Sequence record: ON528731
Origin: Shigella phage ESh21
DNA: 64,000 bases
Reading direction: 5' to 3' (one strand)
Shown here piece by piece: positions 274 through 8,525 of the stretch (positions are counted from its first letter, which is position 1; each line of letters starts with the position of its first letter). Made by a program: the position numbers and the translations under genes. A model generated the notes under the pieces. The model did no database searches, was not told where the DNA came from, and was given only the letters and a program-made list of their open reading frames with translations.

Positions 274-621
274 ATGACATTTAAAGAATTTTGTCAAGCT
301 GCTTTTGTAATCATGTTTCTGTTAGGTGTTGGTGCTTGGGGAGGTTATACTTACAAGACCAGCCAAGTTAACGAGAAAGAGTTGACTAATCAGAGATTGG
401 TTAGTGTTGCTAAGGATGCTTACCAAGAAGGTTTAGCAAACCTTAGCGCTAATTACAAAAACGATTTGAAAGATGTGCTTGCTAAAAACAAACACACAAA
501 AGAGGTATTAACTTATGAAAAAACTAAGACAGAGTTTCTTAATATTTGTGCTACTGAGTCTTATGTCAGGGTGTTCAATGAACAAGGTGAACAGTACCTT
601 CAAAAACTCCCAAGTAAGTGA
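274..621 (+). CDS. Membrane protein, i-spanin-like (N-terminal TM helix, charged periplasmic region)
   Basis: AGGAG Shine-Dalgarno 8 nt upstream; N-terminal hydrophobic segment FVIMFLLGVGAWGG. Confidence 0.5.
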   Translation: MTFKEFCQAAFVIMFLLGVGAWGGYTYKTSQVNEKELTNQRLVSVAKDAYQEGLANLSANYKNDLKDVLAKNKHTKEVLTYEKTKTEFLNICATESYVRVFNEQGEQYLQKLPSK

Positions 622-784
622 GAGTGACAAGTACACTCAGGAAGAAACTAGGTACACTGTCAAAGGTACTAAGGGTGAAGACCTTGCTAGTGCTATGGAG
701 TTTTATCGTGATGGATTCTATGAATGTGCTATCAAGGCAAACAATTTGATTGATATGATTTTGTTAGGGAATAAGCAGCAATGA
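515..784 (+). CDS. Lipoprotein, o-spanin-like, overlapping 274..621 in another frame
   Basis: Signal peptide with lipobox LMSGC; AGAGG SD; starts inside upstream gene and extends past its stop. Confidence 0.45.
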   Translation: MKKLRQSFLIFVLLSLMSGCSMNKVNSTFKNSQVSESDKYTQEETRYTVKGTKGEDLASAMEFYRDGFYECAIKANNLIDMILLGNKQQ

Positions 785-1533: not shown

Positions 1534-1762
1534 GAAGACTAGAAAAGCACTTGGTGGTGCAATCTTTGTAGGTCGCCGAGAAGTAATTCCATTTAGCGCA
1601 AAGATTTGTGAAGGTTCTGTGTTAGGGCATAGACATTTCAAAGATGGTGATTTCAAACATTACGTAGGCAAGTACCTGAGTGAGTCATTGGGAGAGTACA
1701 AACAACGCCAATATAAAACTCACAATGATGTTTTCTTCCAAGAGGTAATTTCAAATGGCTGA
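1508..1762 (+). CDS. Hypothetical protein
   Basis: ORF in track. Confidence 0.45.
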   Translation: MKAIITRCKKTRKALGGAIFVGRREVIPFSAKICEGSVLGHRHFKDGDFKHYVGKYLSESLGEYKQRQYKTHNDVFFQEVISNG

Positions 1763-1955
1763 TTTCTGCAAAGATTGCTCTATTGAAATGTTTGGACGAG
1801 ATACAGGAGACTTGAAAGGTCTTATCACTGAAGAAGATTTCAAAGCTGGTTATGCTATGCCAACACTCTGTGAAGGTTGTGGTGGAATCTGGGTAGACCA
1901 TGAAGGGCAACGTGTAAAACCTTCTGAAGATAAAGAATCGTGGGAGAAATGGTAA
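1755..1955 (+). CDS. Small Cys-rich protein (CxxC...CxxC, zinc-ribbon-like)
   Basis: CKDC and CEGCGG motifs in translation. Confidence 0.45.
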   Translation: MADFCKDCSIEMFGRDTGDLKGLITEEDFKAGYAMPTLCEGCGGIWVDHEGQRVKPSEDKESWEKW

Positions 1956-1956
1956 C

Positions 1957-2751
1957 ATGGGCATTGTAAAAATCATTAAAGGTGATATCTTTGAAGCCTT
2001 TGATAACCAGAAGTTTGATATCATTGGTCACGGATGCAACTGCATGAACTTGATGGGTGCAGGTATTGCAGCAACAATCTCAAAACGCTACCCAAAAGCT
2101 TATGAGACTGACGCTGAAGTTTATGAGACAGTTGGTGGTGAGAACCATAAACCTGTACATCTTATGCTTGGCAATATCTCTGTAGCACGTTTCAAGCAGG
2201 GTCGAATTGCTAACCTATACACTCAGGTTATCACTGGTAAAGATGCACGTTACAATGCCTTAGAAGCAGCTTTGCAGCGTCTTAACAACTACTGCAAAGT
2301 AAACCAGCTTAAGAAGGTTGGTCTTCCAATGATTTGTGCAGGGATTGGTGGTCTGGATATCTTTGCAGTTACTTCAATCATTAACCAGACAATGAAAGAT
2401 GTAGACGTTTACCTTTATGTCTATGAAGAAACAATGCACAGACGACTAACCAATAACATAGTTGGTTGGAACAACTACAGTGAACCTCAACACTTTGATG
2501 GTGTCGCAGTTGTGAAGGATAATCAAGTTACACTACGGGTAAAACGGAAGGGTAAGGTGCATAAAAGTAACCCTCCGGTTGAGAAGTACTCTCTGAGTAA
2601 CGCTCAAGTTACCCACCCGTTACATGACCACTGTTTGAGAGCAGTAACATTTGGTGACAATGCAAGTGTTTACCTTCTTGCACAAGACCATGAAGAAGCT
2701 GATAAGATTATCTCTGATAAACGTTTTAGCTTTGTTGAAGCACGTAACTAA
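1957..2751 (+). CDS. Macro domain protein (ADP-ribose binding / ADP-ribosyl hydrolase-like) with C-terminal extension
   Basis: GDIF...FDIIGHGCNCMNLMGAGIAATI and KVGLPMICAGIGGLD resemble macro-domain motifs (GDIT, VNAAN..GGGV..AI, PxIxTGxxGxP). Confidence 0.65.
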   Translation: MGIVKIIKGDIFEAFDNQKFDIIGHGCNCMNLMGAGIAATISKRYPKAYETDAEVYETVGGENHKPVHLMLGNISVARFKQGRIANLYTQVITGKDARYNALEAALQRLNNYCKVNQLKKVGLPMICAGIGGLDIFAVTSIINQTMKDVDVYLYVYEETMHRRLTNNIVGWNNYSEPQHFDGVAVVKDNQVTLRVKRKGKVHKSNPPVEKYSLSNAQVTHPLHDHCLRAVTFGDNASVYLLAQDHEEADKIISDKRFSFVEARN

Positions 2752-2811
2752 GTAACTTTGTAAAGTATTCACAATAGAGTAAGCCTTTCTTGTTCTTGCA
2801 AACACAAGGTA

Positions 2812-3008
2812 AGGAGGGCTTTTTCATTTCAAAATCGTGCAGATAAAGGTCTATAAAGAAATCTGTAGAGTGAAATCAAAGTCAACTCCAAAGGGAAAAT
2901 TCATTTTCAATTTGTGCAGGTGAACTCCAAAGAGCTTTTTCATTTCAAAATTGTGCAGAGAAAAATCAGGTCGGGCAAGAAAATTCATTTTCAATTTGTG
3001 CAGGTAGC
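2812..3008. repeat. Four tandem copies of a ~40-bp repeat (core TTTCATTTTCAAATTGTGCAG)
   Basis: Copies near 2822, 2901, 2936, 2981 alternating two variants. Confidence 0.7.
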
Positions 3009-3016
3009 CAGATATA

Positions 3017-3057
3017 GCCAGCCAGCCCCACCACCCCCTCTTACTCCCCTTCCTCCC
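3017..3057. repeat. C-rich polypyrimidine tract
   Basis: GCCAGCCAGCCCCACCACCCCCTCTTACTCCCCTTCCTCCC in otherwise AT-rich DNA. Confidence 0.6.
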
Positions 3058-3178
3058 AAAAGTCAAGAGAAAAATTTGTAGCGGATTAAAAAATAATTCT
3101 TGACTAGTTTTCTGTTTAGTGCTATGTGTACGCGCCCGTTTCATTCACAACATGCCAAAAATATTTTTAAAAATTTGC

Positions 3179-3207
3179 TTGACTCTAAAAAACCAGTCTT
3201 ATAGTAT
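3179..3207 (+). promoter_or_regulatory. Sigma70-like promoter for first early cassette
   Basis: TTGACT - 17 bp - TAGTAT. Confidence 0.55.
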
Positions 3208-3257: not shown

Positions 3258-3464
3258 ATGTTATATCAACGGGAATTAATGATTGTCGATAATAACAAAA
3301 CTAAAAAACGTCGCTTCTTTATGTTAATCTGTGACGTGTGGCAAAGAATATCTGAAAAGGATTATGACAAGTATGTTGATACATCAATCAGGTCGGATTG
3401 TTATTTGACAAATCACACAAGACAGTTTACAAGACATACAGCAGTTTACTACTATGACGTTTAA
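3258..3464 (+). CDS. Hypothetical early protein
   Basis: Conserved leader CCTAAACTGGAGATTCAAAAA immediately upstream of ATG. Confidence 0.5.
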   Translation: MLYQRELMIVDNNKTKKRRFFMLICDVWQRISEKDYDKYVDTSIRSDCYLTNHTRQFTRHTAVYYYDV

Positions 3465-3476
3465 AAGGGCTTGACA

Positions 3477-3638
3477 ATGATTAAAGAAAGCAATGTAATA
3501 CGTTACAAGGATTTAGACGGCTACCCTAAAACGGGAAAAGTTTTCTATCTTTACAAGTCAGTGATGGGTAATGACTGCATAGCCCTAACAAATGGCGACA
3601 AAATAACCATGAAAGATTTTATAAAAATTATTGCATAA
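3477..3638 (+). CDS. Small hypothetical protein (53 aa)
   Basis: ATG 13 nt after upstream stop; below ORF-track cutoff. Confidence 0.3.
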   Translation: MIKESNVIRYKDLDGYPKTGKVFYLYKSVMGNDCIALTNGDKITMKDFIKIIA

Positions 3639-3643
3639 AGTGC

Positions 3644-3696
3644 TTCACATGGGGTTTAAAAGGTAGTATCTTAAGCCCCAGATAAAGAACTTTATC
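3644..3696 (+). promoter_or_regulatory. Promoter-embedded stem-loop cassette plus palindrome GATAAAGAACTTTATC
   Basis: TTCACA -35 in 5' arm, hairpin GGGGTTTA/TAAGCCCC, -10-like TATCTT, then 16-bp palindrome. Confidence 0.5.
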
Positions 3697-3726
3697 ACTA
3701 AACAATCCTAAACTGGAGAATCTAAA

Positions 3727-4110
3727 ATGAAAAAATACTATATGCCAAAGTTTATCAAGAAAGAAAACTTTCGCGATGCTCTGGAAAATTCCATGAATGA
3801 GCAATTCAAAGGCAAAATAATTGTTGTACACGCATACAATTTTAAGTATGATGTAAACGGTAACAAGATAAACCACTACACCGTTACAATGTTAGATGAT
3901 ACACTCTCAGGAGAAAAAGCCATCATCAATGCACTGGCTGCACGTGGTAAAACGTTAATCCGTTGTGATAAACGCCGCTATCAGGGTGGCACTTATGGTT
4001 ATGAGGATGCAATCTATCATCTTGCTAATATGGGTTACAATGTCGAAAAAGCTGGCGTATCTCAAATGATTGGTAGTGATGGGTATGTAACAGATTTCAA
4101 AATTAACTAA
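3727..4110 (+). CDS. Hypothetical early protein
   Basis: Conserved leader upstream. Confidence 0.55.
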   Translation: MKKYYMPKFIKKENFRDALENSMNEQFKGKIIVVHAYNFKYDVNGNKINHYTVTMLDDTLSGEKAIINALAARGKTLIRCDKRRYQGGTYGYEDAIYHLANMGYNVEKAGVSQMIGSDGYVTDFKIN

Positions 4111-4118
4111 TAAAGTGC

Positions 4119-4172
4119 TTTACATGGGGTTTATGAGTTGCTAGTATAAGCCCCAGATAAAGAATTTTATCA
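4119..4172 (+). promoter_or_regulatory. Promoter-embedded stem-loop cassette plus palindrome
   Basis: TTTACA - 17 bp - TAGTAT overlapping hairpin GGGGTTTAT/ATAAGCCCC; palindrome GATAAAGAATTTTATC. Confidence 0.55.
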
Positions 4173-4197
4173 CTAACCTAAACTGGAGATTCTAAAA

Positions 4198-4710
4198 ATG
4201 AAATCAGTCGAAAGCACCTTTGAAGTTCAAAAAGAAAAATTTACTATCATCTTTGAAGCAATGAATGTTTATGAGCCTTCCCATTGTGTGGATAACTGGC
4301 AATTCACTGATGAGCATAAAGGAGGAGTTACAATCAAAGTTAAAAACTCAGAACGTAACGGCTACAAATATGCAATTCCTATGCACTATGCGCTTTCACA
4401 GCTTGCCAGTGATTACGCAAAACAGGGAAGGGATAACCCATCATTAGCCGCTTACAAGAGCTTACAAGATGAACTAGAAAGGGATTTAGGGGCTAATAGC
4501 TACATTCTATACGCCTCAGTAGTTGACGCTGAAGGCAACACGGTTTTAAATAGTTTTTCCCTTGCGTATGGTTTTGATTGGTGCTATCTTGACGGGGAAG
4601 ATTTAGATTCACGCTTAAAAGAGGAAGTAAGCAATTCAGGTGCTGAAGAGGAAGTTTTAGAGCGCTTGGAAGATTTAAAAGATAGTGTGATGAATATCTT
4701 TAATATCTAA
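4198..4710 (+). CDS. Hypothetical early protein
   Basis: Conserved leader upstream. Confidence 0.55.
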   Translation: MKSVESTFEVQKEKFTIIFEAMNVYEPSHCVDNWQFTDEHKGGVTIKVKNSERNGYKYAIPMHYALSQLASDYAKQGRDNPSLAAYKSLQDELERDLGANSYILYASVVDAEGNTVLNSFSLAYGFDWCYLDGEDLDSRLKEEVSNSGAEEEVLERLEDLKDSVMNIFNI

Positions 4711-4716
4711 AAGTAC

Positions 4717-4769
4717 TTTACATGGGGGTTATCAAGTTGCTAAGATAGCCCCAGATAAAGAGCTTTACC
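4717..4769 (+). promoter_or_regulatory. Promoter-embedded stem-loop cassette plus imperfect palindrome
   Basis: TTTACA, hairpin, GATAAAGAGCTTTACC. Confidence 0.45.
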
Positions 4770-4795
4770 AACAATCCTAAACTGGAGAATCTAAA

Positions 4796-5086
4796 ATGAA
4801 AATTCCTGCTAATGTACGCTCAAAGTTAAGCCAATTACTACAAAACATTTCTTTTGTAGAATCTCATAGACGTTCACAGGATGTTATAGAGTGGTATCAT
4901 GGGAAGATTAACAAGAAAGAAGTTTTAATCTGTATTTGGAACTTTCAAAAAGAACATGGCAAGCCATTGCTTCAGGTTGACATTTATGATAATACTAGCA
5001 AATCAGCAGTAAAATCAAAAGCTGATATGATTGATTCATATGAAATTAGTCACACTGGTAGATTATCACACGTTGGGAAGGTTTAA
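4796..5086 (+). CDS. Hypothetical early protein
   Basis: Conserved leader upstream. Confidence 0.5.
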   Translation: MKIPANVRSKLSQLLQNISFVESHRRSQDVIEWYHGKINKKEVLICIWNFQKEHGKPLLQVDIYDNTSKSAVKSKADMIDSYEISHTGRLSHVGKV

Positions 5087-5087
5087 A

Positions 5088-5414
5088 ATGTTACTTTCTG
5101 GTATCGCAATTCTGATTTCAATTGTGGCGCTATATAAAGCTTATCAAGCCTCAGACTATGCAGATAAGGCTATCACAAGGAAAGTTAAAATAAACCTTGT
5201 AAGTAGCTTCTTAGAGCGTTTAAGCGTGGAACAATTACAACGTTTAGAGATGGGATTCAGGTTTAAGGCAGACACTTATCAAATCAGTGATGTTTTATCC
5301 GGTAACTTTGAGCTTGTTAATGATTACAATGCGTTACTAAATGCTATTCAAGCTACTGATTTAAAAGAATATTATCCGGTTATTGCACAAGAAATTAATA
5401 AACGCAAAAAATAG
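5088..5414 (+). CDS. Hypothetical membrane protein (N-terminal TM helix)
   Basis: Start moved to ATG 5088 with GGAAGG SD; the longer ORF from 5031 overlaps the upstream gene. Confidence 0.45.
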   Translation: MLLSGIAILISIVALYKAYQASDYADKAITRKVKINLVSSFLERLSVEQLQRLEMGFRFKADTYQISDVLSGNFELVNDYNALLNAIQATDLKEYYPVIAQEINKRKK

Positions 5415-5497
5415 CTTGCAAAGGCAAATCAAAACAAGTAAAGTACTCATCAACGGGGTAAGCAAGCCCCTAACAATCCTAAACTGGAGAATCTAAG

Positions 5498-5770
5498 ATG
5501 TATACAACTAATAATGGCAGAACTTTAAATGTAACTTTAAAGCACTATATAGACGGTGTATTAAACTTTGAAGACTTGCAAGCAGAGCAGCACTTGTTAG
5601 CTTGGCAAGTAGCAGGATTACAAAAAACCGCCACCGGATATGGGAAGAAAATCCCTACATCTTGGAAAGTTCGATACCTTGGAAAGTTACGCAGAATTTA
5701 TCAAGATGTTTACAGTAATAGTGGTGTAAGTTACATTATTGTTAGCGGTAAAAAGTTACATCTTGCTTAA
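5498..5770 (+). CDS. Hypothetical early protein
   Basis: TTGCAA-17-TAAAGT promoter and conserved leader upstream. Confidence 0.5.
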   Translation: MYTTNNGRTLNVTLKHYIDGVLNFEDLQAEQHLLAWQVAGLQKTATGYGKKIPTSWKVRYLGKLRRIYQDVYSNSGVSYIIVSGKKLHLA

Positions 5771-5778
5771 TAAAGTGC

Positions 5779-5831
5779 TTTACATGGGGTTTATAAGTCG
5801 ATAGTATAAGCCCCAGATAAAGAACTTTATC
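5779..5831 (+). promoter_or_regulatory. Promoter-embedded stem-loop cassette plus palindrome
   Basis: TTTACA - 17 bp - TAGTAT with hairpin; GATAAAGAACTTTATC. Confidence 0.55.
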
Positions 5832-5857
5832 ACTAACCTAAACTGGAGATTCAAAAA

Positions 5858-6259
5858 ATGGCTACGAACAAAGATATAGCAGTACTGAAAGCACGTTTGA
5901 CCGTTAACCGTATTAATGCTATCACATCAACCGCACCAGATGAGGTTTTACATAACATTATCGGTAAAATTCAGGGTGTAATTTTAGACGTTGAAAACAT
6001 CAGAGATTCACTTGCAAATGTTGCACAGGGTGTTACACTTGACGGCGCACAATATGAAATGGCTGATATGCTTTCAAAGTCAAAAGTTCTTAATAAAGAA
6101 TTAGACTTGAAAATGTTTCGATTTGCTGTTAAAGTGTGGCTATCTGTTGAGTTTGATGCTAACTTTGCAATTGCTGATTTCTTCGCAACGTGGTTACAAC
6201 GTAATTTAGAAAAGCAAGATTTTCAAGATATCTGCGATACAATTTACGCAGAACTTTAA
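5858..6259 (+). CDS. Hypothetical early protein
   Basis: Conserved leader upstream. Confidence 0.55.
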   Translation: MATNKDIAVLKARLTVNRINAITSTAPDEVLHNIIGKIQGVILDVENIRDSLANVAQGVTLDGAQYEMADMLSKSKVLNKELDLKMFRFAVKVWLSVEFDANFAIADFFATWLQRNLEKQDFQDICDTIYAEL

Positions 6260-6343
6260 AAAACGTTTGACACTGATTTTTAGATATATTAAAGTACTAT
6301 CAGACGGGCAAGCAAGCCCACTTCCTAAACTGGAGATTCAAAA

Positions 6344-6901
6344 ATGAAATGCTTTCACGGAACTACTCAAGAAAACTTTGTGAACCTGCTGAGTGGTGGA
6401 GAAAAACCTTCAGGGGCTTGGAATTGCTCAGACAGTGACGGGTGTTTTTATGTTTACCCTGTTAGTAAGTTCTATGATGTAGAGGATATGAACGCAGAAC
6501 AAATCACTGAAGAGGGTATTAGAAACACTCTGGATAGCGCAAGTATCACAGCGGCTTTCCAGATGAAATCACAAAAAATCGTTATCTTGGAACTCGATAT
6601 TCCAGAGGATGAATTACAAGATGACTGGAGCTGTGAGAATATGAAAGACGTTGCAAGCTTTACAGAACACTTTGATAAATCTTGGATTAAAAAGATTTAC
6701 ACAACTGATTTTAATGCTATGTATGCACCGTTTTTTGTACCTAACTTGAACAATAGAAATCTTGGCTATGTACCTGATGAATTACATAACATTGCTGTAA
6801 TGGTTCAACGTAGCGATGAGATGAATAATGTTTATTGTGACATTTTCGAAAATATGCAATCTAACATCACAGAAAGCAATATAAACGACTTTACAGCATA
6901 A
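6344..6901 (+). CDS. Hypothetical early protein
   Basis: TTGACA-17-TAAAGT promoter and conserved leader upstream. Confidence 0.55.
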   Translation: MKCFHGTTQENFVNLLSGGEKPSGAWNCSDSDGCFYVYPVSKFYDVEDMNAEQITEEGIRNTLDSASITAAFQMKSQKIVILELDIPEDELQDDWSCENMKDVASFTEHFDKSWIKKIYTTDFNAMYAPFFVPNLNNRNLGYVPDELHNIAVMVQRSDEMNNVYCDIFENMQSNITESNINDFTA

Positions 6902-6964
6902 ACCATAGAATCATACCAGATAACCGTAAAAGCCCCACACAGGGGCTTACAGGAGCTTTAAAAG

Positions 6965-7201
6965 ATGCTTACAACAATCTATCTCATGCTTGCCGTTTGC
7001 TCTGGTGCAAATAATTGTCATTATGGCATTATGGAATCCTTTGAAGGCACTAAACAAAATGCGGAAGAGGCTTGTAATATTGCTAGACAAGATTACCCCA
7101 AATCATCTAAAATGGGTTGCTACGTCTTACAAGGTGAAGACGAAAACACAGAATACTACGAAAATATTAATGAAGATGAATTTTTAGAGATTTACAAATA
7201 A
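6965..7201 (+). CDS. Small Cys-containing protein with N-terminal hydrophobic segment (possibly secreted)
   Basis: ORF in track; N-terminal hydrophobic stretch. Confidence 0.45.
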   Translation: MLTTIYLMLAVCSGANNCHYGIMESFEGTKQNAEEACNIARQDYPKSSKMGCYVLQGEDENTEYYENINEDEFLEIYK

Positions 7202-7206
7202 AGTAC

Positions 7207-7259
7207 TTTACATGGGGCTTAAAAGGTAGTATCTTAAGCCCCAGATAAAGAGCTTTACC
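7207..7259 (+). promoter_or_regulatory. Promoter-embedded stem-loop cassette plus imperfect palindrome
   Basis: TTTACA, hairpin GGGGCTTA/TAAGCCCC, GATAAAGAGCTTTACC. Confidence 0.45.
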
Positions 7260-7286
7260 AACAATCCTAAACTGGAGAATCTAAAA

Positions 7287-7628
7287 ATGGCATACGTAAC
7301 AGTAATTACTGACAAAGAAAATTCATCTTGGTCTACTCAGGTTAGCGATAAAATGTCCCCTATGCAGTGTCTCAAGTACTTTGAGCAGTGGAACCGTGGG
7401 GAAGATGTAAGCCCTTTTCAGGTGATGCAGGTTGTACACGTTGACAATGACGGCAACAAAACAACACTTAACACTGAATACTACGCAAGCCGTTTTGAAA
7501 CTAGAGCAGAGGCAATGAAACAATTACGTGAAAAGGGTTACAGTCACATAGCTGGATTAATCTGGAATGACTTACTAAAACAGCAGTGTATGACCTATGT
7601 CAAGCCTGAAAAAATCTTTATAAGCTAA
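7287..7628 (+). CDS. Hypothetical early protein
   Basis: Conserved leader upstream. Confidence 0.55.
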   Translation: MAYVTVITDKENSSWSTQVSDKMSPMQCLKYFEQWNRGEDVSPFQVMQVVHVDNDGNKTTLNTEYYASRFETRAEAMKQLREKGYSHIAGLIWNDLLKQQCMTYVKPEKIFIS

Positions 7629-7813
7629 TCAGTAACTTACAAAATACTTTGAAAAAACTGTTGACTTTACCCCTTGACAATAGTACATTTGTTCGAGGGG
7701 GTTTATCTAAAAGGATTCACTTGAAAGATTCTTTATAGATAAGCCTTGCAATTGCTTCAAAGATTCTCTATAGTTCTCTCAGTTGGTTAACTTCCTAAAC
7801 TGGAGATTCTAAA

Positions 7814-7933
7814 ATGATTATTTTGTATATGATGGTATTCTCAGTAGTGACCCCTTTCATACTCTTAATAGCCAGCGAAATAGATGATAAAATCTTTGAT
7901 AAAAAGCTTGCAAAGGCAAATCAAAACAAGTAA
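7814..7933 (+). CDS. Small hydrophobic peptide (39 aa)
   Basis: Conserved leader directly upstream of ATG; below ORF-track cutoff. Confidence 0.3.
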   Translation: MIILYMMVFSVVTPFILLIASEIDDKIFDKKLAKANQNK

Positions 7934-7997
7934 AGTATCTATCAAGGGGAAGGAATAAGGCTTCCCCCACTAAATAATCCTAAACTGGAGATTCAAA

Positions 7998-8525
7998 ATG
8001 AATAAGTTCACAGCAATCAATACTATCCGCTCAAAAGATGTAATGAAAAAACCTGTAAAAGACACTTTCGAATTTACTCTTAAAGATAAGTTGTTTGCAG
8101 TTATCACGAAAGGGGAAGATAAAAAATATTACATTCATCGCCCAAATCAGCAAATGCTAACCACTAACAACTTTATGAAGGCTGTGGCAATGATTCTGCC
8201 TGATTTTATGGCTATCGTTGCAGAGATTCACGAAATGGCTATAAAAGCCACTAAAAACGAGCTAAACCGCTATAAAATGGCTTATGAGCGTTCTATCAAG
8301 TCTCATAATCTTTTTATTGCAATCCACCATACGGGGATGTATGCTATGGGGACGGGTAACCAACAATACCCGCTCTATGATGTAGAAAATATCTATACAG
8401 GTGATTATCCAACAACTAAATTTAAGATTACGCTGGGGGAGGCATTAACTAGGGGGATTCGACTTTACGAACAATCTCTAAAAAACTTAGAAAATTCACT
8501 TGACGAAACGTTAGCGAATCTTTAA
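7998..8525 (+). CDS. Hypothetical early protein
   Basis: Conserved leader upstream. Confidence 0.55.
   Translation: MNKFTAINTIRSKDVMKKPVKDTFEFTLKDKLFAVITKGEDKKYYIHRPNQQMLTTNNFMKAVAMILPDFMAIVAEIHEMAIKATKNELNRYKMAYERSIKSHNLFIAIHHTGMYAMGTGNQQYPLYDVENIYTGDYPTTKFKITLGEALTRGIRLYEQSLKNLENSLDETLANL

What the first reader, a model, noticed from the sequence alone, without database searches (positions are those of the whole stretch)
1957..2751. Macro-domain protein at the head of the early region
The N-terminal ~150 aa carry macro-domain motifs (GDIF; FDIIGHGCNCMNLMGAGIAATI; KVGLPMICAGIGGLD). A phage macro domain could reverse host ADP-ribosylation of DNA or proteins, making it a candidate counter-defence or host-takeover enzyme. 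The C-terminal ~110 aa have no call.
Basis: partly seen in the sequence, partly recalled or inferred. Interest (0 to 1): 0.6.

Follow-up and report, generated by a model that had tools for sequence, protein, structure and literature searches.

The report
Phage macrodomain enzyme with orphan tail domain
This gene of a Felix-O1-like Shigella phage encodes an ADP-ribose-removing macrodomain related to phage T4's anti-DarT factor Tk.4/AdfM, fused to a small domain found nowhere else, so it is most likely an ordinary counter-defence enzyme in an unusual two-domain form.

Summary
ORF 1957-2751 (+) encodes 264 aa, and all three quoted motifs are present. Residues 1-155 are a genuine macrodomain: Pfam Macro scores 30 bits against a cutoff of 22, and the AlphaFold model (pLDDT 91) superposes on TARG1, DarG and Poa1p with TM 0.77-0.87.

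The window is Shigella phage ESh22 (Mooglevirus, Ounavirinae). Relatives already annotate this gene as 'phosphatase / macro domain protein'.

The closest characterised relative is T4 Tk.4 (34-37% identity, E 7e-20 to 3e-23). A 2025 preprint named it AdfM because its deletion sensitises T4 to DarTG2.

The family has an invariant Gln (Q90, NLYTQ) where DarG and TARG1 have their catalytic Lys. This is the arrangement of SCO6735, which removes ADP-ribose from thymidine in DNA. The most likely role is reversal of DarT2-type DNA ADP-ribosylation (confidence about 0.55).

Residues 156-264 form a beta-rich domain. It has no sequence or fold relative outside this family, evolves several times faster than the macrodomain, and is unlike DarG's DarT-binding domain.

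The gene is the last of an operon, followed by a terminator. It is not the head of the early region. This lineage has Cys at a near-invariant phosphate-loop Gly (G127C).

The macrodomain call is ordinary and largely known; only the fused orphan domain is new. Interest is modest.

The parts
1957..2751 (+). Complete CDS, 264 aa plus stop. It is 100% identical to URY12777.1 of Shigella phage ESh22 (also found in ESh21).
   Evidence: dN/dS well below 1
1942..1946 (+). Shine-Dalgarno-like GGGAG, 10 nt before the ATG. It lies inside the end of the upstream ORF (stop 1953-1955), which suggests translational coupling.
   Evidence: sequence read directly; ORF list
1957..2421 (+). Macrodomain, aa 1-155, of the ALC1-like class (TARG1 / DarG / Poa1p / SCO6735) and the Tk.4/AdfM-like clade. 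Key residues are D10, H25-G26-C27-N28, the M33-G34-A35-G36 loop, N86-L87-Y88-T89-Q90, and the P124-M125-I126-C127-A128-G129-I130-G131-G132 loop.
2224..2226 (+). Codon for Gln90. It is invariant in the family and sits at the position of DarG Lys80, TARG1 Lys84 and SCO6735 Gln85.
2335..2337 (+). Codon TGT for Cys127, where at least 90% of relatives have Gly (GGT would be one base away). The position equals SCO6735 Gly126, which contacts the diphosphate. The variant is a real lineage polymorphism: 6 of 13 distinct sequences in the 90% cluster carry it.
2422..2748 (+). C-terminal orphan domain, aa 156-264. One helix is followed by about 6 beta strands and a C-terminal helix. It is found only fused to this macrodomain in Ounavirinae-like phages.
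2777..2834 (+). Intrinsic-terminator-like hairpin (about -20.7 kcal/mol, z -3.1, 0 of 200 shuffles as stable) followed by a T-rich tract. It closes the operon that ends with this gene.

Best explanation
The gene encodes a two-domain phage protein. Its N-terminal macrodomain is an ADP-ribosyl glycohydrolase of the Tk.4/AdfM type.

Proposed mechanism (inferred). When the phage infects E. coli or Shigella carrying a DarTG2-type system, released DarT2 ADP-ribosylates thymidines in single-stranded phage DNA and blocks replication. The macrodomain binds the ADP-ribose through its Asp10, Asn28 and two Gly-rich loops. It cleaves the ribose-thymine bond by the lysine-independent, Gln-dependent mechanism described for SCO6735, restoring replicable DNA.

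Shown here: domain identity, fold, conservation of the binding and catalytic-position residues, closest homology to T4 Tk.4, and purifying selection.

Inferred: the substrate (ADPr-thymidine in DNA), the defence system countered, and the time of expression.

The fast-evolving C-terminal domain packs against the macrodomain in the model. It is inferred to be an accessory module for stability, targeting or partner binding; its role is unknown.
For: - Macrodomain identity: Pfam above cutoff; profile hits to TARG1, Poa1p, DarG and SCO6735; DarG HMMs at E about 1e-13; confident AF2 model with TM 0.77-0.87 to TARG1, DarG and Poa1p.
- Closest characterised relative is T4 Tk.4: 34% identity, E 7e-20 to T4 NP_049723; 37%, E 3e-23 to the ime09 orthologue. 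The HGCNC and NLYTQ motifs are shared.
- T4 tk.4 was the single HIDEN-SEQ hit under DarTG2, and a clean knockout sensitises T4 to it (10.1101/2025.11.20.689424).
- Q90 is invariant and aligns with SCO6735 Gln85. SCO6735 removes thymidine-linked ADPr from DNA, rescues cells from DarT, and is killed by Q85A/E (PMC9411070).
- N28 aligns with Asn23 of PhiKZ AdfM, whose N23A mutant has reduced activity on DarT2-modified DNA (PMC13309987).
- The gene is conserved with synteny across about 244-268 Ounavirinae genomes, and the macro part has dN/dS 0.07-0.11.
- The hosts are enterobacteria, the same host group in which DarTG2 defence was demonstrated.
Against: - No experiment exists for any Ounavirinae homologue; literature searches found none.
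- At 34-37% identity macrodomain substrates can differ. Iyer et al. argue that phage macrodomains more often target soluble ADPr derivatives (PMC9503650).
- The T4 AdfM mechanism itself is inferred from genetics, not biochemistry.
- SCO6735 Lys34, needed for DNA positioning, is Ala35 here. SCO6735's long basic mobile loop is also absent.
- This lineage has Cys instead of the near-invariant Gly127 in the diphosphate-binding loop, which might weaken activity.
- The extra C-terminal domain has no counterpart in T4 Tk.4.
Confidence: 0.55

Rival explanations
1. The macrodomain acts on a soluble ADP-ribose derivative rather than on DNA. Candidates are ADP-ribose-1''-phosphate (Poa1p-like 'phosphatase', as RefSeq and PHROGs label it), O-acetyl-ADP-ribose, or an immune signal or toxin derived from NAD+ such as a Thoeris-type ADPR signal. 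The role would be in NAD/ADPr metabolism or signal destruction.
For: - By single-sequence search the N-terminal motif HGCNCxxxMGAGIA is closest to yeast Poa1p, HSCNCNGSWGGGIA.
- phrog_335 and the T4 annotation say 'phosphatase / A1pp motif'.
- Iyer et al. [quoted passage not shown]
- Homologues sit beside ribose-phosphate pyrophosphokinase in Vibrio phages Quinn and Chester.
- Ounavirinae carry PRS plus Nampt NAD-salvage genes, and a polynucleotide kinase lies in the same gene block.
Against: - The 'phosphatase' label is inherited from the old Appr-1-p name of the Pfam family, not from an assay.
- Two of the three Poa1p residues chosen for mutagenesis, S30 and F152, are not conserved here (L32 and G131). 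Only H23 is conserved, as H25.
- The one genetic phenotype known for the closest homologue is DarTG2-specific.
- No Tpt1/KptA-type source of Appr-1-p is annotated in relatives.
Confidence: 0.17
2. It reverses ADP-ribosylation of RNA or protein rather than DNA. The modification could come from another host defence (for example the mRNA-modifying CmdTAC type or protein ARTs) or from a phage-encoded ADP-ribosyltransferase whose activity it tunes.
For: - ALC1-like macrodomains are promiscuous: SCO6735 and TARG1 act on both protein and DNA substrates.
- T4, which has Tk.4, also encodes Alt, ModA and ModB ARTs (established knowledge; mentioned).
- The surrounding operon holds RNA-related genes in relatives, a RegB-like protein and a polynucleotide kinase. 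T4 tk.4 likewise lies next to regB, vs.1 and vs.
Against: - No ART is annotated in the related genomes Sf17 or Mordin, although most genes there are 'hypothetical' and I did not scan them all.
- There is no direct evidence for RNA or protein substrates in any Tk.4-type protein.
Confidence: 0.15
3. In this particular lineage the protein is a weakened or non-catalytic ADP-ribose binder because of the G127C change in the phosphate-binding loop. Alternatively, it works mainly by stoichiometric binding through the C-terminal domain.
For: - Gly127 is at least 90% conserved.
- It equals SCO6735 Gly126, which contacts the diphosphate.
- SCO6735 and DarG also inhibit DarT by direct interaction, independent of catalysis.
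Against: - The Cys variant persists in several diverging sequences from independent assemblies, and the rest of the active site is intact.
- Poa1p has Asn at this position and is active, as seen in the alignment.
- The contact is presumably through the backbone (my inference; the paper passage read does not say).
- Strong purifying selection acts on the macro half.
Confidence: 0.08

Closest known systems
T4 Tk.4 = AdfM (anti-DarT factor macrodomain; NP_049723; HIDEN-SEQ preprint 10.1101/2025.11.20.689424)
   Same: - Best characterised homologue: 34-37% identity over about 160 aa.
- Same HGCNC, MG(A/S)G and NLYTQ motifs, with Gln at the catalytic-Lys position.
- Also a lytic enterobacterial myovirus, and also an orphan gene with no adjacent toxin.
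   Different: - Tk.4 is a single 155-aa domain, whereas this protein has an extra 109-aa C-terminal domain.
- The genomic neighbourhoods differ, with only a faint echo: RegB-like and lysis-related genes lie nearby in both.
- No functional data exist for the Ounavirinae protein.
SCO6735 (PDB 5E3B) and BT1257 (2FG1/2AFC): Gln-type ALC1-like macrodomains
   Same: - Gln at the DarG-K80 / TARG1-K84 position (Q90 = Q85).
- H-x-C-N motif and P-x-I-G-x-G loop.
- SCO6735 is a proven thymidine-ADPr DNA hydrolase.
   Different: - Only 23% identity.
- The mobile loop after the Gln is 5 residues shorter.
- SCO6735 Lys34 is Ala35 here, and Gly126 is Cys127 here.
- SCO6735 is a cellular, DNA-damage-inducible protein rather than a phage protein.
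DarG antitoxin of DarTG2 (PDB 5M31, 5M3I; NCBIfam NF048014) and PhiKZ gp104 AdfM (PMC13309987)
   Same: - Same macrodomain class.
- DarG HMMs hit at E about 1e-13.
- Conserved Asn: N28 = PhiKZ N23.
- Two-domain layout with the macrodomain first, in the case of DarG.
   Different: - The catalytic Lys (FPTK) is replaced by Gln (LYTQ).
- The NCBIfam score is 50.7 against a cutoff of 250.
- The C-terminal domain is unrelated to DarG's helical DarT-binding domain (hhalign probability 0.16%).
- There is no adjacent darT gene.
Human TARG1/OARD1 and yeast Poa1p
   Same: Top sequence-profile and fold matches. The HxCNC motif is shared with Poa1p.
   Different: - The TARG1 Lys84/Asp125 dyad is absent (Q90, G131).
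- Poa1p S30 and F152 are not conserved.
- Both are eukaryotic housekeeping enzymes.

Membership tests
Macro domain superfamily (Pfam PF01661) | HMM score above the curated gathering threshold | tested here: met
   30 bits against a cutoff of 22, E 5.4e-7, aa 25-141 matching profile positions 2-117 of 118
Macro domain superfamily (Pfam PF01661) | Three-layer alpha/beta/alpha macro fold with Gly-rich ADP-ribose/phosphate-binding loops | tested here: met
   AF2 pLDDT 91. Foldseek gives TM 0.77-0.87, normalised to the target, to the TARG1, DarG and Poa1p ADPr complexes. The loops M33-G34-A35-G36 and G129-I130-G131-G132 are conserved.
ALC1-like macrodomain class (TARG1 / DarG / Poa1p / SCO6735) | Closest sequence and structure neighbours lie in this class rather than among MacroD-type, PARG or viral nsP3 macrodomains | tested here: met
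   Profile E-values are 5e-16 to 1.6e-10 for TARG1, Poa1p, DarG, BT1257 and SCO6735, against 3e-4 or weaker for nsP3 and Af1521. Foldseek gives the same order.
TARG1-type hydrolase | Catalytic Lys84 / Asp125 dyad | tested here: not met
   TARG1 K84 aligns with Q90 and D125 aligns with G131
DarG antitoxin (NCBIfam NF048014 equivalog) | Full-length model score above the equivalog cutoff | tested here: not met
   50.7 bits against a cutoff of 250. Only the macro part (model positions 2-153 of 338) matches.
DarG antitoxin (NCBIfam NF048014 equivalog) | Catalytic Lys80 in the FPTK motif | tested here: not met
   LYTQ here versus FPTK in Taq and Mtb DarG and PhiKZ gp104
DarG antitoxin (NCBIfam NF048014 equivalog) | C-terminal DarT-binding domain | tested here: not met
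DarG antitoxin (NCBIfam NF048014 equivalog) | Adjacent darT (DUF4433) toxin gene | tested here: not met
   The five upstream ORFs fall in PHROGs of unknown function and are 56-108 aa. A terminator and intergenic repeats lie downstream. In true DarTG loci a DUF4433 gene directly precedes darG.
SCO6735 / BT1257 Gln-type subclass | Gln at the position of the DarG/TARG1 catalytic Lys | tested here: met
   Q90 is invariant in 21 of 21 family members. It aligns with SCO6735 Q85 in the pairwise BLASTP, ANLYTQ against ANMIGQ.
SCO6735 / BT1257 Gln-type subclass | Elongated basic mobile loop after the Gln, and Lys34 for DNA positioning | tested here: not met
   The Gln-to-Tyr distance is 9 residues here against 14 in SCO6735. 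SCO6735 K34 aligns with A35.
T4 Tk.4 / AdfM-type phage macrodomain | Significant homology with shared HGCNC and NLYTQ motifs | tested here: met
   E 7e-20 (T4) and 3e-23 (ime09), 34-37% identity over 164 aa. Motifs are shown.
T4 Tk.4 / AdfM-type phage macrodomain | Single-domain protein of about 155 aa | tested here: not met
   The protein is 264 aa with an extra domain at aa 156-264
T4 Tk.4 / AdfM-type phage macrodomain | Protects the phage from DarTG2 and removes DarT2-made ADP-ribose from DNA | not testable with these tools
   This needs plaque assays and in vitro de-ADP-ribosylation. No published data exist for Ounavirinae.
Poa1p ADP-ribose-1''-phosphate phosphatase | Conservation of the residues probed in the Poa1p structures (H23, S30, F152) | tested here: inconclusive
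   H23 corresponds to H25 and is conserved. S30 corresponds to L32 and F152 to G131, and neither is conserved. I did not read the roles of these residues in a paper.

The most novel reading that the evidence does not exclude
The fast-evolving orphan C-terminal domain may be a second, non-enzymatic neutralisation or targeting module. It might bind DarT2 or another host ADP-ribosyltransferase directly, or dock the enzyme at the phage replisome. The protein would then be a convergent, structurally unrelated analogue of two-pronged DarG (hydrolase plus toxin binder).

Its rapid divergence could reflect an arms race with variable host toxins: dN is about 0.30 for this domain against 0.05 for the macro half, and pI ranges from 4.6 to 9.7 across homologues.
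Probability: 0.12. Interest if true: 0.6.

Novelty: new variant of a known kind. Interest (0 to 1): 0.33.

Why it matters
If the assignment is right, the whole Ounavirinae subfamily carries a built-in counter to DarT-type DNA ADP-ribosylation. This includes Felix O1 and its relatives, which are widely used for Salmonella, E. coli and Shigella typing and biocontrol. That helps predict host range on DarTG-positive strains.

It would also extend the lysine-independent, Gln-type mechanism from one Streptomyces enzyme to a large phage clade.

The only new element is the fused domain, which has no relatives in 1.84 billion representative proteins or in the PDB. Working out what it does could reveal how a phage hydrolase is targeted or made toxin-specific.

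As a discovery the macrodomain itself is routine. Relatives are already annotated as macro domain or phosphatase, and the T4 homologue's anti-defence role was published in 2025.

Tried and rejected
1. **C-terminal domain identity.** Nothing was found by any method.
   - Pfam gave only sub-threshold PH (E 0.13) and AglB (E 0.061) hits.
   - The profile searched against 1.84e9 representative proteins found only its own family, 5 clusters.
   - hmmsearch against PDB sequences found nothing.
   - Foldseek against BFVD found only the SUSP2 orthologue.
   - The afdb50 library was unavailable.
2. **Fusion of T4 neighbour genes.** hhalign against T4 Tk.3 and Vs found no similarity, so this is rejected.
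3. **DarG-like C-terminal domain.** Rejected.
4. **General nucleic-acid-binding C-terminal domain.** Disfavoured. The pI of this domain ranges from 4.6 to 9.7 among homologues and is mostly acidic or neutral.
5. **C127 as a sequencing error.** Rejected. The Cys is present in 6 of 13 distinct cluster sequences from several sources.
6. **Stand-alone C-terminal domain (P0022).** This is a frameshift-split copy next to its macro ORF, not an independent gene.
7. **Functional data on Felix-like phage macrodomains or DarTG sensitivity.** Literature searches found none.
8. **Neighbouring genes as functional clues.** The five upstream ORFs fall in PHROGs of unknown function, and the ten downstream ORFs have no Pfam hit.

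Full report
**What is there**

The window is essentially Shigella phage ESh22 (ON528732.1; Mooglevirus, Ounavirinae, the Felix-O1-like myoviruses of about 88 kb). The first 6 kb match it at 99.1% identity, and the protein is 100% identical to URY12777.1, annotated 'hypothetical protein'.

The ORF runs 1957..2751 on the + strand and encodes 264 aa. A GGGAG Shine-Dalgarno-like element lies 10 nt before the ATG. The upstream ORF stops one base before the ATG.

**Is it a macrodomain?** Yes, by every test.

- Pfam Macro (PF01661) scores 30 bits against a curated cutoff of 22.
- PHROGs places the whole protein in phrog_335 'phosphatase' at E 1e-95.
- A profile of 21 family members hits TARG1 at 5e-16, yeast Poa1p at 1.6e-14, M. 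tuberculosis DarG macrodomain at 1.2e-12, BT1257 at about 4e-12, SCO6735 at 8e-12 and T. aquaticus DarG at 1.6e-10. Viral nsP3 and Af1521-type macrodomains come only at 3e-4 or weaker.
- The NCBIfam and PADLOC DarG models match the first 160 residues at E about 1e-13. The NCBIfam score is far below its equivalog cutoff, 50.7 against 250 bits.
- The AlphaFold2 model is confident (pLDDT 91, pTM 0.88). Its best PDB matches are TARG1, DarG and Poa1p, with TM-scores of 0.77-0.87 normalised to the target.

The domain therefore belongs to the ALC1-like class of macrodomains.

**Closest characterised relative**

tblastn against 50,697 phage records finds 2,775 records with a macrodomain match, but only 268 cover at least 80% of the protein. 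The short hits (aa 3-160, 30-37% identity) are T4-like Tk.4 proteins.

Direct BLASTP gives 34% identity over 164 aa (E 7e-20) to T4 Tk.4 itself (NP_049723, annotated 'phosphatase; contains A1pp phosphatase motif'). It gives 37% (E 3e-23) to the ime09 orthologue.

A November 2025 preprint reports that tk.4 was the single significant transposon-sequencing hit when T4 infected a DarTG2 host. A clean knockout sensitises T4 to DarTG2. The gene was named adfM, with enzymatic removal of ADP-ribose from DNA proposed but not assayed (10.1101/2025.11.20.689424). An earlier paper had shown that T4 lacking AdfA and AdfN stays DarTG2-resistant and predicted such a factor (PMC11825919).

A separate paper used the same name for PhiKZ gp104. 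That is a DarG-like macrodomain shown in vitro to remove DarT2-made ADP-ribose from DNA (PMC13309987).

**Active site**

This needs care.

In the family alignment the invariant residues are G9, I23, H25, G26, N28, G36, A38, N86, T89, Q90, G94, P124 and G129. The TARG1 catalytic Lys84 aligns with Q90 and Asp125 with G131. DarG and PhiKZ gp104 have FPTK where this protein, T4 Tk.4 and the other short phage homologues have (L/F)(Y/F)TQ.

So the Lys-based mechanisms are excluded. Gln at exactly this position is, however, the hallmark of SCO6735 (PDB 5E3B) and BT1257. SCO6735 efficiently removes thymidine-linked ADP-ribose from DNA and rescues cells from DarT. It is inactivated by Q85A/E, and a water-mediated mechanism has been proposed for it (PMC9411070).

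Pairwise alignment maps Q90 to Q85, H25-G26-C27-N28 to H24-V25-C26-N27, and C127 to G126. N28 aligns with PhiKZ AdfM Asn23, whose N23A mutant has reduced activity.

There are differences from SCO6735. Its Lys34 is Ala35 here. Its longer basic mobile loop is absent: 9 residues from Gln to Tyr here against 14.

**A lineage peculiarity**

The window protein has Cys127 (TGT) where at least 90% of relatives have Gly. The position is SCO6735 Gly126, reported to contact the diphosphate.

The Cys is not an error. It occurs in 6 of 13 distinct sequences of the 90% cluster, from ESh21, ESh22, Shigella flexneri assemblies and metagenomes. Poa1p has Asn at this position. The effect on activity is unknown.

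**The C-terminal domain (aa 156-264)**

In the model it is one helix, about six strands and a closing helix. Confidence is pLDDT about 90 within the full-length model and 80 when modelled alone.

It has no detectable relative.

- Pfam gives only sub-threshold noise.
- A 12-sequence profile searched against 1.84 billion representative proteins finds 5 clusters, all from the same family.
- hmmsearch against PDB sequences finds nothing.
- The viral structure library returns only the SUSP2 orthologue.

It is unrelated to the T4 neighbour proteins Tk.3 and Vs. It is also unrelated to the DarT-binding C-terminal domain of bona fide DarG proteins taken from two DarT-DarG loci (hhalign probability 0.16%).

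tblastn with the domain alone finds 244 phage records, all 82-90 kb Ounavirinae. They include Felix O1 (FO1a gp13) and BASEL phage JohannRWettstein. A more distant 86-kb metagenomic phage keeps the fusion and the rIIB - PNK - ... - macro synteny.

The domain evolves much faster than the macrodomain. Identity is 92% against 61% in one homologue and 51% against 21% in another. Against Mordin and Sf17, dN is about 0.30 for this domain and 0.05 for the macro half. It is still under purifying selection (dN/dS 0.08-0.28).

Its pI ranges from 4.6 to 9.7, which argues against a generic nucleic-acid-binding role. Its function is unknown. The high pTM of the full model suggests it packs firmly on the macrodomain.

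**Genomic setting**

The gene is the last in a run of tightly packed, same-strand ORFs. The run begins after a terminator at 231-252 and includes the nested spanin genes. In relatives, further upstream lie rIIA/rIIB, a RegB/lysozyme-like gene and a polynucleotide kinase.

Immediately after the stop codon is a strong hairpin with a T-rich tail at 2777-2834 (-20.7 kcal/mol, z -3.1). Then comes a roughly 400-bp intergenic stretch containing four direct repeats and a C-rich tract. Only after that does the array of small ORFs begin, each with its own sigma-70-like promoter match. None of those ORFs has a Pfam hit.

'Head of the early region' is therefore inaccurate. The gene closes the preceding operon, and its time of expression cannot be read from sequence.

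**Interpretation**

The best-supported explanation (about 0.55) is an AdfM/Tk.4-type ADP-ribosyl glycohydrolase that removes DarT2-type ADP-ribose from thymidine in phage DNA by the Gln-dependent mechanism.

Rival explanations:

- Processing of soluble ADPr derivatives or Poa1p-like phosphatase activity (about 0.17). This is supported by the Poa1p-like N-terminal motif, the contextual argument of Iyer et al. (PMC9503650), and linkage of homologues to NAD-salvage genes in some phages.
- Reversal of RNA or protein ADP-ribosylation (about 0.15).
- A weakened or binding-only protein because of C127 (about 0.08).

None of these can be separated without experiments.

**Novelty**

The macrodomain is already annotated in relatives: 'putative macro domain-containing protein' in Sf18, 'phosphatase; contains macro domain' in Mordin, and a UniProt name for SUSP2. 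The anti-DarT role of the T4 homologue is published.

What is new is modest. The first point is the assignment of the Ounavirinae core gene to the Gln-type Tk.4/AdfM clade. The second is the recognition that it carries a clade-restricted, fast-evolving orphan domain unlike DarG's second domain. I rate it a new variant of a known kind, with interest of about 0.33.

Noticed in passing
window 2815-3005: Four direct repeats of about 27-33 nt lie in the intergenic region after the macro gene. They fall into two alternating subtypes, GCTTTTTCATTTCAAAAT(C/T)GTGCAGA and GAAAATTCATTTTCAATTTGTGCAGGT; the two copies of the second subtype are 100% identical. The first copy overlaps the terminator's T-tract. 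They could be protein-binding sites or remnants of duplicated terminator or promoter modules.
   Followed up: partly
window ~3018-3060: An unusually C-rich tract (CCAGCCAGCCCCACCACCCCCTCTTACTCCCCTTCCTCCC) sits in an otherwise AT-rich intergenic region, just upstream of the first promoter-like sites of the small-ORF array (TTGACT-17-TAGTAT at 3179-3207).
   Followed up: no
window 1755-1955 (+): A 66-aa ORF with two CxxC pairs (C5/C8 and C39/C42), zinc-ribbon-like, falls in phrog_2210 of unknown function. Its stop codon lies one base before the macro ATG, so the two are probably translationally coupled. A homologous 66-aa ORF also directly precedes the macro ORF in metagenomic contig L012.
   Followed up: partly
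window 3258-8525 (+): An array of small ORFs (55-185 aa) lies here, most preceded by a sigma-70-like promoter match (for example TTTACA-17-TAGTAT at 4119, TTTACA-18-TAAGAT at 4717, TTTACA-17-TAGTAT at 5779, TTGACA-17-TAAAGT at 6267, TTTACA-17-TATCTT at 7207). Promoter-like sites are enriched: 42 found against 27.6 +/- 5.9 in shuffles. None of ten ORFs tested has a Pfam hit, which is typical of early 'host-takeover' ORFans.
   Followed up: partly
window 2335-2337 (codon 127 of the macro gene): A G127C polymorphism affects a near-invariant Gly of the phosphate-binding loop. It is shared by ESh21, ESh22 and several metagenomic or Shigella-assembly sequences but is absent from sister sequences in the same 90% cluster.
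   Followed up: yes
window 2422-2748 versus 1957-2421: Compared with Mordin and Sf17, the C-terminal half has higher synonymous as well as non-synonymous divergence than the macro half (dS about 1.1 against 0.46-0.72). Mordin against Sf17 shows no such contrast. This suggests the C-terminal domain allele of the ESh22 lineage was acquired by recombination, a mosaic within the gene.
   Followed up: partly
locus L012 (Logan ERR2213706 contig), 291-1069: In one metagenomic contig the macrodomain (162 aa) and the C-terminal domain (114 aa) are called as two overlapping ORFs. This is probably a frameshift, either an assembly error or a naturally split gene.
   Followed up: no
window 274-784 (+); terminator 231-252: Nested i-spanin and o-spanin genes (274-621 and 515-784) open the operon that ends with the macro gene. 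A strong terminator-like hairpin lies directly before them. It is unusual to find lysis genes co-oriented and contiguous with a putative anti-defence gene.
   Followed up: no
related loci: L005 (Sf17) 21657-24400; phage records of hits H57 and H59: Mooglevirus Sf17 encodes ribose-phosphate pyrophosphokinase and nicotinamide phosphoribosyltransferase (NAD+ salvage) about 8-10 kb upstream of the macro gene. In Vibrio phages Quinn and Chester the macro homologue lies directly beside a ribose-phosphate pyrophosphokinase gene. This could be a functional link between phage macrodomains and NAD+ reconstitution.
   Followed up: no
locus L011 (T4) 3923-5501 and L002 (Mordin) 24-1245: T4 tk.4 lies next to vs, vs.1 and regB. 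In Mordin a gene annotated 'similar to T4 RegB, lysozyme-like domain' and a polynucleotide kinase lie about 3 kb upstream of the macro gene. This is a faint, possibly ancestral shared neighbourhood.
   Followed up: no
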